Below are positions 41,036 through 63,859 of a stretch of 64,000 bases of DNA, piece after piece. Every line of letters starts with the position of its first letter. Position 1 is the first letter of the stretch. Source of the stretch: an uncultured archaeon (GTDB taxonomy: Archaea > Asgardarchaeota > Lokiarchaeia > Sigyniarchaeales > SOKP01); assembly GCA_964486045.1 (NCBI GenBank), contig CAZALK010000005.1, forward strand, positions 190,713 to 254,712, given 5' to 3'. The position numbers and the translations under genes were made by a program. The notes below the pieces were generated by a model that was not told the origin of the DNA, searched no databases, and worked only from the letters and a program-made list of their open reading frames with translations.

Positions 41036-41244
41036 ATGACTGAATATAAAAGGACTAAATGCCCAAAATGTAACAATGAGAATCCACGCATGCTCCATGA
41101 TGAACCCGATAAGAGTAATATTCTTTACTACAGTATTGGAAACGTTATTTAAACTTTCCGCTGAAGCAGGGTACTCCAGTTTATGCGCGCATCATAAAAT
41201 GTGGCGACTGTGGAACCACTTTTTCTAAATCTGCTACGGCATAA
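41036..41244 (+). CDS. 59-aa zinc-finger protein after removal of intron 41137-41165 (absent from the ORF track)
   Basis: Spliced product MTEYKRTKCPKCNNENPRMLHDEPDKSNILYYSMQGTPVYARIIKCGDCGTTFSKSATA joins two CxxC knuckles. Confidence 0.8.
41137..41165 (+). other. BHB/BHL mRNA intron, 29 nt
   Basis: Central helix cagt/gctg, bulges att and aag, inner helix ggaaa/tttcc. Cuts at|t and aa|g create agt ATG cag. Confidence 0.82.
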
Positions 41245-42122: not shown

Positions 42123-42796
42123 TTAAATTTCTACTATTTCTTTTATATCTTCTTCTGTGAACTTTAAGGTGTTTTCAGCATTTACCTTTTTGATCTTATC
42201 CATTTCATCATAGTATTTAATTATTGGTTCAGCGTTTGCTTCATAAGCATCTAACCTGTTTTTGAGCGTTTCTTCATTATCATCACTTCTTTGTTGAAAC
42301 TTTATTTCTGAATCGCATTTATCACATAAACCTTCTACCTTAGGCGGGAGAGTATATTTGTTGTATAGTTTTCCACAGTTAGGACAGGAGTATCTACCTA
42401 AAATTCTTTTCATAATTAACTCTCTTGGGACTTCTAGGAGAAGTAATAAATCGATTTCGGTTATACTTGTTAATGCTTTTGCTTGGGAGATTGTACGAGG
42501 GAAACCATCAAGAATGAAACCTTCTGCCTTCACATCTTCCCTAGTTAGCCGATCTCGTACTATATCGATGGTTACATCATCAGGAACAAGTTCTCCCTTG
42601 TCCATATAGCTTTTTGCTTTTAATCCTAAAGGTGTTTCATTTTTTAGGTTTTCTCTAAATATATCTCCTGTACTGATATGGATAATATCTGGTAATACTT
42701 TTTTGATTTGCCCGGAAAATGTACCTTTTCTGGATTTTGGGACGCTCCCTAAAATTTTCCAGCCCCGGGGGGTCCAAATAATATTAATTTTTTCAT
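42123..42796 (-). CDS. adk: Adenylate kinase (bacterial type, Zn-LID), 214 aa after removal of intron 42728-42756
   Basis: Spliced N-terminus MKKLILFGPPGAGKGTFSGQI; HISTGDIFR, GELVPD, LDGFPRT, CPNC..CDKC and QRSDD motifs. Confidence 0.93.
42728..42756 (-). other. BHB/BHL mRNA intron, 29 nt, inside the adk P-loop
   Basis: Sense strand ctgg AAA atttt-a-ggga-gcg-tccc-aaaat ccag AAA. Cutting aa|a in both bulges gives gct gga aaa ggt (AGKG). Confidence 0.9.
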
Positions 42797-44779: not shown

Positions 44780-45469
44780 ATGATAACAATAGGAGATTTT
44801 ACAATAAGCCCAACAAAGATCATTTGTTTAGGTATAAATTACATGGATCACATCGAAGAGACTAATATGAAAATACCGGAAGAGCCATTACTCTTTCCAA
44901 AAACACTTAATTGCCTAATTACAAATAACCAACCAATTTTATACCCAAAATACTTATATAATAATAGACGATATAATCGGGTTGATTACGAAGTAGAATT
45001 GGCGTTTATTGTGAAAGATAAATGCAAGGATATATCAGCGAGTGACGTATACAATCATATCTTAGGATACACCGTTTTTAACGACGTGACCGCTCGTAAA
45101 ATGCAAACAAAGGATATAACTTCCCAAAAACCGTGGTTTCGTTCTAAGTCATTTGACACATTCGGACCAATCGGCCCCGTAATTAAAAAAGTTAATGAAA
45201 TCAATGATCCCCATAATCTTAATATTGAATTAAGGGTAAATGGAGAGTTAAAACAATCTTCAAATACAAAATATTTATTATTTAAGATTCCTGAAACTTT
45301 TGAGTATATTAGCCGACTTTTTACTATGGAACCAGGTGATATAATTGCTACAGGTACTCCTGCAGGGATAGGACCTGTTAAACCTGGAGATTTAATTGAA
45401 GCAACGATAGAAAATATTGGTACTCTAGCAAATAAAGTAATTCTAGAAGGAGAAGAAGAGAATTTATGA
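44780..45469 (+). CDS. Fumarylacetoacetate hydrolase family protein
   Basis: KIICLGINY, DYEVEL, NDVTAR and GDIIATGTP motifs. Confidence 0.92.
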   Translation: MITIGDFTISPTKIICLGINYMDHIEETNMKIPEEPLLFPKTLNCLITNNQPILYPKYLYNNRRYNRVDYEVELAFIVKDKCKDISASDVYNHILGYTVFNDVTARKMQTKDITSQKPWFRSKSFDTFGPIGPVIKKVNEINDPHNLNIELRVNGELKQSSNTKYLLFKIPETFEYISRLFTMEPGDIIATGTPAGIGPVKPGDLIEATIENIGTLANKVILEGEEENL

Positions 45470-46143
45470 GAATTGGTAAAACTGACATTGCACCAACCAA
45501 AATTATATGTATAGGTCGTAACTATTTAGAACATGCTAAAGAACTAAATTCTCCTATACCTACTGAGCCAGTTTTTTTCGTTAAGACGCTAAACTCAATT
45601 ATAACTGATGGAAACCCAATAATTTATCCCAGAATTTTATATGAAAATGATGAATTCAACAGAGTAGATCATGAAGTAGAACTTGCTTTTATTATGCAGA
45701 AGACATGTAAAAAAATTTCATCTGCTAAAGCTTGTGATTTTATTCAGGGATTTTCTATTTTTTTAGATATAACTGCTAGAAAAATGCAAATTTTAGATAG
45801 AAACAGAAATTTACCTTGGTATCGAAGTAAGAATTTTGATACATTCTCGGTTATAGGTCCTCGCGTAGTTCCTCTAAATGAAATTAAAGATCCTCATAAT
45901 CTTAATATTGAATTAAAAGTTAATGGAGTAATAAAGCAATCATCTAACACAAAACACATGATTTTTAAAATTCCAAGAATTATGGAATATTTATCCAGCT
46001 TTTTAACTCTCGAAAAAGGAGACATTATAGCAACAGGTACACCAAGCGGGGTTGGACCAATTCAACCGGGAAATATTATTGAAGCCTCAATAGAAAATAT
46101 TGGGACAATTACTCATCAAGTCGTTTTAGAAAGAGAAGATTAA
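45466..46143 (+). CDS. Fumarylacetoacetate hydrolase family protein (tandem paralog)
   Basis: Same motifs as the upstream copy; 4-bp overlap. Confidence 0.92.
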   Translation: MRIGKTDIAPTKIICIGRNYLEHAKELNSPIPTEPVFFVKTLNSIITDGNPIIYPRILYENDEFNRVDHEVELAFIMQKTCKKISSAKACDFIQGFSIFLDITARKMQILDRNRNLPWYRSKNFDTFSVIGPRVVPLNEIKDPHNLNIELKVNGVIKQSSNTKHMIFKIPRIMEYLSSFLTLEKGDIIATGTPSGVGPIQPGNIIEASIENIGTITHQVVLERED

Positions 46144-47849: not shown

Positions 47850-48375
47850 GTGAGTGAAAAAGGAAAAGTTGTTGTAATGGCTCTTGTAACTGGTGGTAGT
47901 GCATCAGGAGGGCCACCCATTGGACCCGCAGTTGGACCTACAGGCATAAACGTAAATCACCTCGATTATTGATGTATACATTAAAGATGTTGTTGACGAA
48001 ATAAATAGTCAAACAATGGTCTTTAAGGGTTTAACTGTACCGGTAAGAATAGAATGTGATCCCGAAACAAAACAATTTAAGATATTTGTTGAAACTCCTT
48101 CCACAGCATCATTATTACTTAAGGAGACTGGAGTAGAAAAGGGGAGCTCATCATGTTCAGAAGAAAAAATTGGTGATCTAACGATTGAGCAGGTTGTTGG
48201 TGTCGTTGAAGCAAAGAAAGGAAAGTTTTTAGATAAAACGTTTAAATCTGCTGTTAAAACAGCTCTAGGGACTGCATTATCTATAGGAATTACAGTTGAA
48301 GGTGAAGACCCCAGAGAAATTCAAAAAAAATTAGAAAATGGAGAATTTGATGACAAAATCAAAGGTGTATTGTAA
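47850..48375 (+). CDS. rpl11: 50S ribosomal protein uL11, 165 aa after removal of intron 47950-47977
   Basis: GTG start; MSEKGKVVVMALVTGGSASGGPPIGPAVGPTGIN|IKDVVDEINSQTMVFKG. The ORF track shows only the 3' exon. Confidence 0.93.
47950..47977 (+). other. BHB/BHL mRNA intron, 28 nt
   Basis: Central helix gcat/atgt, bulges aaa and ata, inner pairs cg/tg and aatc/gatt. Cuts aa|a and at|a give ggc ata aac att aaa (GINIK). Confidence 0.85.
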
Positions 48376-52164: not shown

Positions 52165-53327
52165 TAGGTCAATCTACTTCGCTTTTGACAAAAGATGGAC
52201 TCTCTGGGAGTCACCTTATAAGATGTTTCATCCCGGAAAATCCGAACTCTAAATCTATTCAGAGTACATTGATTTAAATTAATAAATTTACTTATAATAT
52301 AATGATTAAATATTATCAAAAACATAAATTTCAGCAAGAAATATATGATTCATAGCGAATTTAAATATTTAGGAACAACCAAGCTAAGAAAGAGAGAAAT
52401 AGGGAGCAGAAAAGTCACCAAAGAGACTTATATTAACCATTTGCTTTCAATTAAGTTAGTAAATAAATATACTTTAATTTGTGTCAATGAATTAGAGTTA
52501 ATGGAGTATTCCCGTAGAGGAAGTGAATTCGATTCTATAGCTGACAAACTAAGAAATTGGTATGAAAGTGACTATGAGATCAATATCTCTGATTACGACT
52601 TTACATTTCCTATTCTTAATGAACTTGCGTATATGGGGGAACAAGAAGCACTACAAACCTATAATAAACTTATTTCTAATAGAGCAATAATTGAAAAGCT
52701 TATAGACATTGATTTTAATAATTTTTTCAAGGATATCTATGATATTTATCTAGAACAATTAGAGAAGGGGGAAGTAAATATGGATCTAGCAAAACGAATT
52801 AAATTAGAAGATTTATGTTCATTTTATTATTATCAATACAAAGCTGATATATTAGAAAATGATTTTTACCTACATATTTGGGATAAAATAAAATTTAACC
52901 TGAAAATTCCCATATCTCTAATTGATGAGGATATTATTAAAGAATTATTCAAAGCTTTTGAGGTAAAGCTATGGACTGACGATCCAGATTTGAATTATGA
53001 AGCTTATAGCAGTGAATATAATTCAAAATATAATAGGACATTCTTTAAAGAAATAATCGATCCAATTTTAATGGAAATTCTAACAACTAGACCAAAACTT
53101 AAAACCCAATTTATTTTAGAATTTAATAATAAAATTAACTCTTTAAATAAACTTAATTCACCTGAAATAATATTGATAGACGTTGTTTTAAAGTGCTCCG
53201 ATCTTACCGAAGATTTGTTCGAATATAATTCATGCGTTTCAAAAGTGTATAGCAGTATTAGCTATCTATCGCAAATTAAGTTAAACGTAGGTTAGTTGAT
53301 GTATTTGCTTCTTGGAATGGATTAATA
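52150..53327. mobile_element. Insertion of about 1.16 kb bounded by 17-bp direct repeats at the secY 3' end
   Basis: cttggaatggattaata occurs at 52150-52166 (including the secY stop) and at 53311-53327. Confidence 0.7.
52345..53295 (+). CDS. Hypothetical protein (cargo of the insertion)
   Basis: 316-aa ORF with no recognised motif. Confidence 0.65.
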   Translation: MIHSEFKYLGTTKLRKREIGSRKVTKETYINHLLSIKLVNKYTLICVNELELMEYSRRGSEFDSIADKLRNWYESDYEINISDYDFTFPILNELAYMGEQEALQTYNKLISNRAIIEKLIDIDFNNFFKDIYDIYLEQLEKGEVNMDLAKRIKLEDLCSFYYYQYKADILENDFYLHIWDKIKFNLKIPISLIDEDIIKELFKAFEVKLWTDDPDLNYEAYSSEYNSKYNRTFFKEIIDPILMEILTTRPKLKTQFILEFNNKINSLNKLNSPEIILIDVVLKCSDLTEDLFEYNSCVSKVYSSISYLSQIKLNVG

Positions 53328-53995: not shown

Positions 53996-54093
53996 ATAAA
54001 TTCAACTTTGAAAACAAACTTATTGAATTCATGTATAATAAAGCAACGGGGAGTATTTCTTTAACTTCTTTTTATGAGTATAAAGAAATGATA

Positions 54094-54192
54094 CGCAGAC
54101 AGAGGGATTCGAACCCCCGAGTGCATTCGCACACTGGCTTTCTGGGAGTATTCCCGCTCCAAGCCAGCGCCGTACCGCTAGGCAATGTCTGC
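54094..54192 (-). tRNA. tRNA-Ser(GGA) with canonical 37/38 intron (54140-54156, 17 nt)
   Basis: GCAGACA/TGTCTGC acceptor stem, CTGGC-TTGGAGA-GCCAG after splicing, long variable arm, TTCGAAT, G73. BHB is ttgg AGC ggg..ctc ccag AAA. Confidence 0.92.
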
Positions 54193-54392
54193 AAAAAATC
54201 TGATCAGATTATTTCAGTATTATTTTCAATATAAGGATTCAAAATTTTAATATTTTATCTAATGAATTTTGAAAATAAAAATCGAAAATAATTTATTTTT
54301 ACTTGAATTTACTAAGTTACTTCAAATTGATGTAATTTACTGGAAATATACTACACCAGTAACTAAACAAATAATTTGGTGACAAATTACAT

Positions 54393-63683: not shown

Positions 63684-63859
63684 GGGCCATTTGCTTAGCC
63701 TGGTTAACAAGGTTTTATATGCTTGGTCAACAAGCGCAGGTCTTATAAATGACCGTCGGACATACAAGAGTATAATTGTCCGAGAAAGTAAAAACCTGAG
63801 ATCCGGGGTTCAATTGATGATTGGGATTCCCTTCGTCAGAATCCACCCCCGATGGCCCA
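63684..63859 (+). tRNA. tRNA-Ile(UAU) with three non-canonical introns (63707-63731, 63749-63793, 63814-63844)
   Basis: Removing the three BHB/BHL introns gives a 75-nt cloverleaf: GGGCCAT TT GCTT AGCCTGGTTA AAGC G CAGGT CTTATAA ACCTG AGATC CGGGG TTCAAAC CCCCG ATGGCCC A, followed by a T-tract. Confidence 0.85.

What the first reader, a model, noticed from the sequence alone, without database searches (positions are those of the whole stretch)
42720..42775. Intron splits the Walker A loop of adenylate kinase
The 29-nt insert sits inside GPPGAGK-GT, shifts the frame and contains TAG. The ORF-track N-terminus is therefore spurious and the true start is ATG 42796. The motif ctgg-AAA...ccag-AAA has a relaxed outer helix (cccgggg/ttccggg), i.e. 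BHL type. Established: relaxed BHL substrates need the broader-specificity splicing endonucleases. No adenylate kinase lies at the usual archaeal position after secY in this window, so this may be the copy the cell depends on.
Basis: partly seen in the sequence, partly recalled or inferred. Interest (0 to 1): 0.85.

Follow-up and report, generated by a model that had tools for sequence, protein, structure and literature searches.

The report
tRNA-type mini-intron splits Asgard adenylate kinase
The only standard adenylate kinase gene of this Asgard (Lokiarchaeia-type) archaeon is broken in its ATP-binding loop by a 29-base insert shaped like a tRNA intron, and relatives carry different 30- and 31-base inserts at the same spot, so the mRNA is very probably cut and re-joined by the tRNA-splicing enzymes, which the papers I could search confirm inside a coding sequence for only one archaeal gene (cbf5).

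Summary
Confirmed. A 29-nt insert (42756..42728, minus) shifts the frame and puts TAG in the Walker A loop of a zinc-lid adenylate kinase of a Promethearchaeota (Lokiarchaeia) genome. Removing it at the EndA cut positions gives a 214-aa protein from ATG 42796, the length of most intronless orthologues. New evidence: three unrelated-looking insert sequences (29, 30, 31 nt) sit at this exact junction in four separate lineages. All keep the 4-bp helix, the bulge and the stem. A 7-bp exon-exon helix is complete in 5/5 carriers but 1/68 non-carriers. Exon 2 is under purifying selection (dN/dS about 0.06). The genome has no other ADK-family or AdkA gene (an AK6-like kinase exists) and encodes RtcB and a two-subunit EndA with the broad-specificity loop lysine. 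Splicing itself is inferred: no RNA data. Carriers are not monophyletic (AU p=0.0001); repeated loss and repeated gain or transfer remain undecided. The scan has already reported this intron class in other genes of this genome and in other Lokiarchaeia; the look-ups showed no earlier adk case. In searchable papers only cbf5 is confirmed.

The parts
42757..42796 (-). adk exon 1 (40 nt): ATG start, MKKLILFGPPGAG plus first base of the Walker A Lys codon
   Evidence: same N-terminus in intronless orthologues
42728..42756 (-). 29-nt candidate EndA-type intron; shifts the frame, in-frame TAG at 42751..42749; folds into the intron stem (h')
   Evidence: same-site 30- and 31-nt inserts in relatives
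42759..42762 (-). central 4-bp helix, exon strand CTGG
   Evidence: CTGG in all six carriers with DNA against 16 of 66 non-carriers
42756..42758 (-). 3-nt bulge AAA with the predicted 5' cut (AA/A)
42730..42733 (-). central helix, intron strand CCAG (CTAG in the other lineages, G-C to G-U)
42718..42729 (-). 12-nt one-sided loop starting with AAA, holding the predicted 3' cut (AA/A between 42728 and 42727)
   Evidence: its synonymous positions vary among carriers
42763..42769 (-). outer exon-exon helix, 5' strand CCCGGGG
   Evidence: 7/7 pairs in 5 of 5 carriers, 1 of 68 non-carriers
42711..42717 (-). outer exon-exon helix, 3' strand TTCCGGG
42123..42727 (-). adk exon 2: rest of a long, bacterial-type adenylate kinase with Cys4 lid
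   Evidence: TIGR01351 210.6 bits against cut-off 168; dN/dS 0.058-0.072 against sister genomes

Best explanation
The insert is a real mRNA intron of the archaeal tRNA type. The adk pre-mRNA folds into a relaxed bulge-helix motif: intron stem, 3-nt bulge, 4-bp helix, then a 12-nt loop closed by a 7-bp exon-exon helix. The heteromeric splicing endonuclease EndA cuts after the second A on each side, RtcB joins the exons, and the junction GCT GGA AAA GGT ACA restores GPPGAGKGT in a 214-aa kinase. The unspliced message stops after 15 codons. Shown: sequence, frame restoration, motif geometry, its conservation in carriers, purifying selection, presence of the enzyme genes. Inferred: folding in vivo, cleavage by EndA, ligation by RtcB, dependence of the cell on this copy.
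For: Cut rule and frame agree in the one register of six that forms the motif. Inserts of 29, 30 and 31 nt with three different sequences lie at the same junction, and all six with DNA restore GKGT (five full genes give 214 aa; one contig starts inside exon 1). All 65 cells of 13 pairs are paired, against 18-60% in slid controls. Outer helix 5/5 against 1/68. dN/dS about 0.06, no stops in exon 2; a second strain has the identical intron and two SNPs elsewhere. Single PF00406 hit, no AdkA in a 99% complete genome. EndA alpha with Y142/H150/K181 and loop K59 aligned to A. pernix K44; second paralogue lacks the His; RtcB frame intact. Same-type inserts break uL11, RNase HII, Rpo1N, FwdB and a CoA activase of this genome, with intronless or same-site orthologues.
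Against: No transcript or cleavage data. Covariation is weak: one pair with a two-sided change, 44/500 shuffles as high. Overall folding energy is ordinary. The 3' side is a 12-nt loop rather than a strict bulge. Carriers are few and related, so counts are not independent. An AK6-like kinase could buffer loss. The genome-wide motif scan is not enriched overall (36 hits against 24-34 in offset controls); only its strongest class is (5 against 0).
Confidence: 0.9

Rival explanations
1. Translational recoding: the ribosome frameshifts, hops or reads through the insert, with no RNA splicing.
For: Recoding is known in archaea (PMC8211752, abstract only). The insert is a hairpin next to an A/T run. 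One Logan protein (P0070, 99% identical to G022) has the 30-nt insert in frame without a stop (DNA not available).
Against: The 29-, 30- and 31-nt inserts would need a -1 shift, a UGA read-through and a +1 shift at the same codon. A shift or read-through leaves about 10 foreign residues inside the P-loop: a -1 shift here gives GAGK-ILGSVPKSR-KGT, and the 30-nt type loses the Lys position. It does not explain the 4-bp helix and bulge geometry.
Confidence: 0.03
2. The gene is inactivated by a small insertion (pseudogene or mobile-element footprint), and the AK6-like kinase supplies the activity.
For: Most relatives are intronless, including about 30 proteins 85-91% identical. AA(A)A repeats flank the insert. 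A PRK03839-like kinase is present.
Against: No decay: exon 2 is open with dN/dS about 0.06. Four lineages carry same-site inserts with intact genes. No second copy of the insert in the genome (no other match longer than 15 nt in the output shown, which was cut). Synonymous exon sites in the helices are constrained only in carriers.
Confidence: 0.04
3. The insert is removed from the RNA by another enzyme, or excised at DNA level, and the resemblance to an EndA substrate is incidental.
For: The 3' site lacks a strict 3-nt bulge. No Asgard EndA has been assayed on such substrates (10.64898/2026.10.13.758758).
Against: Boundaries follow the EndA rule exactly in all carriers. The loop-bearing enzyme type that cuts relaxed motifs is present. 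No intronless second copy in the assembly.
Confidence: 0.02
4. Sequencing or assembly artefact.
For: The genome is a MAG with 7.8% contamination.
Against: The identical insert is in an independent assembly (L234), and different inserts lie at the same site in five other assemblies with DNA.
Confidence: 0.01

Closest known systems
cbf5 pre-mRNA intron of Crenarchaeota (Desulfurococcales, Sulfolobales; Watanabe 2002, Yoshinari 2006, Yokobori 2009 PMC2738675)
   Same: Short intron in a coding sequence, inside the codon of a catalytic residue (Asp in Cbf5, Walker A Lys here, both after the first base); relaxed BHB motif; host has a heteromeric EndA; patchy presence among relatives.
   Different: Different gene and phylum (Promethearchaeota). 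One of many such introns in one genome rather than a single case. Carriers are a scattered minority (8 of 213 rows). cbf5 splicing is shown by cDNA; this one is not.
Non-canonical tRNA introns with HBh'/BHL motifs cut by (alpha beta)2 EndA with the L1/CSL loop (PMC5829648; Asgard tRNA introns, bioRxiv 10.64898/2026.10.13.758758)
   Same: Motif geometry, size range, enzyme type; Asgard EndA is reported to carry the L1 loop; repeated gains are reported for Asgard tRNA introns.
   Different: The host RNA is an mRNA and the closing helix is made of synonymous codon positions; the Asgard preprint does not treat mRNAs (0 occurrences of 'mRNA' or 'cbf5').
BHB intron in the 5' UTR of Haloferax HVO_1309 (PMC7714728)
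   Same: EndA-processed intron in an mRNA.
   Different: It lies outside the coding sequence, so no frame has to be restored.
Long bacterial-type adenylate kinase with zinc lid (TIGR01351; Bacillus/Geobacillus Adk structures such as 1ZIN)
   Same: P-loop GPPGAGKGT and Cys4 lid; an intronless orthologue aligns over its full length.
   Different: Gene split by an intron; located upstream of aroD, not after secY.

Membership tests
EndA-spliced (BHB-type) archaeal intron | 4-bp central helix between exon and intron strands | tested here: met
   CTGG/CCAG here, CTGG/CTAG in the other lineages; all paired
EndA-spliced (BHB-type) archaeal intron | 3-nt bulge closed by an intron helix (HBh' half) | tested here: met
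   AAA, AAT, AAA bulges; the first stem pair changes A-U to G-C between lineages
Strict hBHBh' motif | Second 3-nt bulge closed directly by an exon helix | tested here: not met
   12-nt one-sided loop, then a 7-bp exon helix: relaxed HBh'/BHL form
EndA-spliced (BHB-type) archaeal intron | Cuts after the second nucleotide of each bulge give the functional product | tested here: met
   Restores GKGT in all six carriers with DNA plus the second strain; 214 aa in the full genes
EndA-spliced (BHB-type) archaeal intron | Host encodes an EndA able to cut relaxed motifs, and a ligase | tested here: met
   Two paralogues; alpha with triad and CSL Lys, beta without His; RtcB 557 bits, no stops. Activity not assayed.
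EndA-spliced (BHB-type) archaeal intron | Spliced RNA or excised intron observed; cleavage by EndA in vitro | not testable with these tools
   No RNA data held; no 214-aa spliced form in the protein cluster of this gene
Group I / group II or homing-endonuclease introns | Ribozyme core or intron-encoded ORF | tested here: not met
   29-31 nt, no ORF; no Rfam family over the insert
Adenylate kinase, TIGR01351 | Score above the curated cut-off; P-loop; lid | tested here: met
   210.6 bits against 168 from exon 2 alone; P-loop complete only after splicing

The most novel reading that the evidence does not exclude
Promethearchaeota use EndA/RtcB as a routine mRNA-splicing system on which core housekeeping enzymes depend, and these ORF-less 30-nt introns spread sideways: the adk intron entered this lineage recently together with about 35 nt of flanking exon by short-patch recombination from a distant relative, at a P-loop site hit repeatedly.
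Probability: 0.3. Interest if true: 0.88.

Novelty: new variant of a known kind. Interest (0 to 1): 0.72.

Why it matters
If spliced, a central energy-metabolism enzyme of an Asgard archaeon depends on the tRNA-splicing machinery. The searchable literature confirms one coding-region case in all archaea (cbf5). Together with the other interrupted genes checked here, it makes protein-enzyme mRNA splicing a normal step of gene expression in a lineage close to eukaryotes, where RtcB also ligates an mRNA (XBP1). In practice gene callers give these genes false N-termini (the 238- and 209-aa records in public sets), which distorts Asgard annotation. The adk site is a compact test case for how such introns are gained and lost: three insert sequences, four lineages and many close intronless relatives.

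Tried and rejected
Whole-region folding energy as evidence: not significant (z 0.04). Covariation statistics: too few independent sequences (44/500). A donor copy of the intron elsewhere in the genome: none seen. Rfam: no match over the insert. A spliced 214-aa form in public protein sets: not found. First genome-wide motif scan was too strict and missed adk itself; the second is noisy, and only its strongest hits exceed the controls. One origin with vertical descent and no loss: rejected by the AU test. A fixed co-conversion tract as the only reason for shared flanks: weakened, because the 31-nt lineage differs at three synonymous sites on the 3' side (two in the loop, one a G-U to G-C change in the helix) while keeping every pair. 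DNA for the stop-free in-frame variant P0070 could not be fetched. Searches failed on wrong coordinates. Paper searches found no report of mRNA introns in Asgard archaea; the library lacks most subscription papers.

Full report
Observation. On the minus strand the gene starts at ATG 42796 and reads MKKLILFGPPGAGK, then F and TAG. Removing 29 nt restores one open frame of 214 residues to the stop at 42123, with GPPGAGKGT intact. Six registers give the same joined sequence. Only one (42756..42728) forms a 4-bp helix CTGG/CCAG with a 3-nt bulge and an intron stem, and it equals cutting after the second base of each AAA. Shuffling the insert gives that geometry in 0.2-0.3% of trials, and with equal energy in at most 0.01%. 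Folding energy of the region alone is ordinary (z 0.04).

Organism and gene. The closest named records are mostly Promethearchaeota MAGs; the genome is 5.2 Mb, 99% complete, 7.8% contaminated. Exon 2 alone passes TIGR01351, and an intronless orthologue aligns end to end with Bacillus-type zinc-lid kinases. There is one PF00406 hit and no archaeal AdkA. The other P-loop hits examined are a Cmk, a 180-aa kinase with no family over cut-off, an SRP-type GTPase by sequence, and an AK6/Fap7-like kinase below its cut-off. From my own knowledge, AK6-type proteins can show adenylate kinase activity in vitro, so essentiality is likely, not proven. The gene lies upstream of aroD in all relatives examined, so the empty slot after secY is not special to intron carriers.

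Comparative evidence. Of 71 loci read at DNA level, 67 are intronless, as are 117 of the 120 best protein hits. Carriers: this genome and a second strain with the identical 29-nt insert (L234); a 30-nt insert with in-frame TGA in G020, G022 and contig SDBS01017265.1; a 31-nt insert in GCA_054391055.1 and GCA_048881765.1; and a Logan protein nearly identical to G022 whose 30-nt insert is in frame without a stop. All inserts with DNA sit at the same junction and restore GKGT under the same cut rule. Across five full carriers all 13 pairs tested are paired in every sequence; slid controls give 18-60%. Four pairs change on one side and one on both sides, and the shuffle control is not passed (44/500). 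The exon-exon helix is complete in 5/5 carriers and 1/68 non-carriers (kin are not independent). Exon 2 has dN/dS 0.058-0.072 against sister genomes, like the sisters among themselves (0.05). Inserts of 3n-1, 3n and 3n+1 bases at one codon cannot share a recoding mechanism, and any translated insert would wreck the P-loop. Removal from the RNA explains all three.

Machinery. Two EndA paralogues. One matches the A. pernix catalytic subunit, with Y142, H150, K181 and the loop GSPLGINKPR whose K59 aligns with K44; the other has Ser in place of the catalytic His. [quoted passage not shown] RtcB has an open frame. Many tRNA genes of the genome carry introns.

Not an isolated case. My motif scan is noisy overall (36 hits against 24-34), but its five strongest hits, adk among them, have no counterpart in controls. 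Comparison with relatives supports inserts of the same kind in Rpo1N, FwdB and a CoA activase (intronless orthologues give the joined sequence), RNase HII (same-site inserts in four relatives) and uL11 in this window. Earlier notes of this scan report the class in this genome and other Lokiarchaeia. I treat them as leads; they are not independent proof, and none returned concerned adk.

History. Carriers are not one clade on the gene-body tree (AU p 0.00014). On 213 rows the label needs four changes, all forced by well-supported branches. This genome sits inside a 37-row clade in which only it and its twin strain carry the intron. A single gain needs 4 to 22 losses, depending on how weak branches are collapsed. 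The 35 exon bases around the junction differ at 1 position from G020 (57 of 241 in the body) but at 7-8 from the nearest intronless relatives (26-34 of 241 in the body). This fits structural selection on an old intron lost many times, or transfer of the intron with a short exon patch. The data do not decide.

Comparison with the known. The nearest case is the crenarchaeal cbf5 intron (PMC2738675). In 2020 it was still called the only other BHB intron beside a Haloferax 5' UTR case (PMC7714728). The 2026 preprint on Asgard tRNA introns does not treat mRNAs and notes that splicing of its new candidates has not been shown in an Asgard cell. The adk insert meets every sequence-level criterion of a relaxed EndA intron and fails only the strict two-bulge form; the RNA-level criterion could not be tested.

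Verdict. Real feature, very probably a spliced mRNA intron (0.9). A new variant of a known kind: known chemistry, new gene, new phylum, part of a genome-wide set. Interest 0.72.

Noticed in passing
window 47950..47977 (+): 28-nt insert in uL11 with GCAT-AAA / ATGT-ATA motif (weak stem); removal gives GINIKDVV as in intronless relatives. Relatives carry inserts at this and at least two other nearby sites.
   Followed up: partly
window 41137..41165 (+): 29-nt motif insert whose removal yields a small CxxC...CxxC zinc-ribbon protein; found by my scan, no homologue check by me.
   Followed up: partly
G000 C13:44101 (+), C1:474888 (-), C2:135224 (+), C7:54809 (+): 30-, 30-, 29- and 27-nt inserts in Rpo1N, RNase HII, FwdB and a CoA-activase gene (names from sequence motifs), each in a conserved motif; presence is patchy among five relatives.
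   Followed up: partly
G000 C7:137290 (+), C11:93369 (-), C17:113110 (+), C7:62120 (-): Further scan candidates of 30-32 nt: a histone, a dodecin-like gene and two unnamed genes.
   Followed up: no
P0070 (Logan ERR10503174): Strain nearly identical to G022 whose 30-nt adk insert has Trp where the others have TGA, so a stop codon may not be needed to keep the intron; DNA not retrievable.
   Followed up: partly
L217 (G022, Rpo1N): Sequence upstream of the G000 junction does not match the orthologues; probably a longer or different insert at or near the same site.
   Followed up: no
window 52345..53295 (+): Orphan 316-aa ORF between secY and the membrane-protein gene that usually follows it.
   Followed up: no
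window 63684..63859 (+) and 54093..54193 (-): tRNA-like genes with introns; the first is missed by ARAGORN.
   Followed up: no
G000 C1:657170 (+), L162:1486-2085: AK6/Fap7-like kinase (PRK03839, 96 bits, below cut-off 152).
   Followed up: partly
window 44780..46143 (+): Two tandem fumarylacetoacetate-hydrolase-family genes, conserved beside the adk block in relatives.
   Followed up: no
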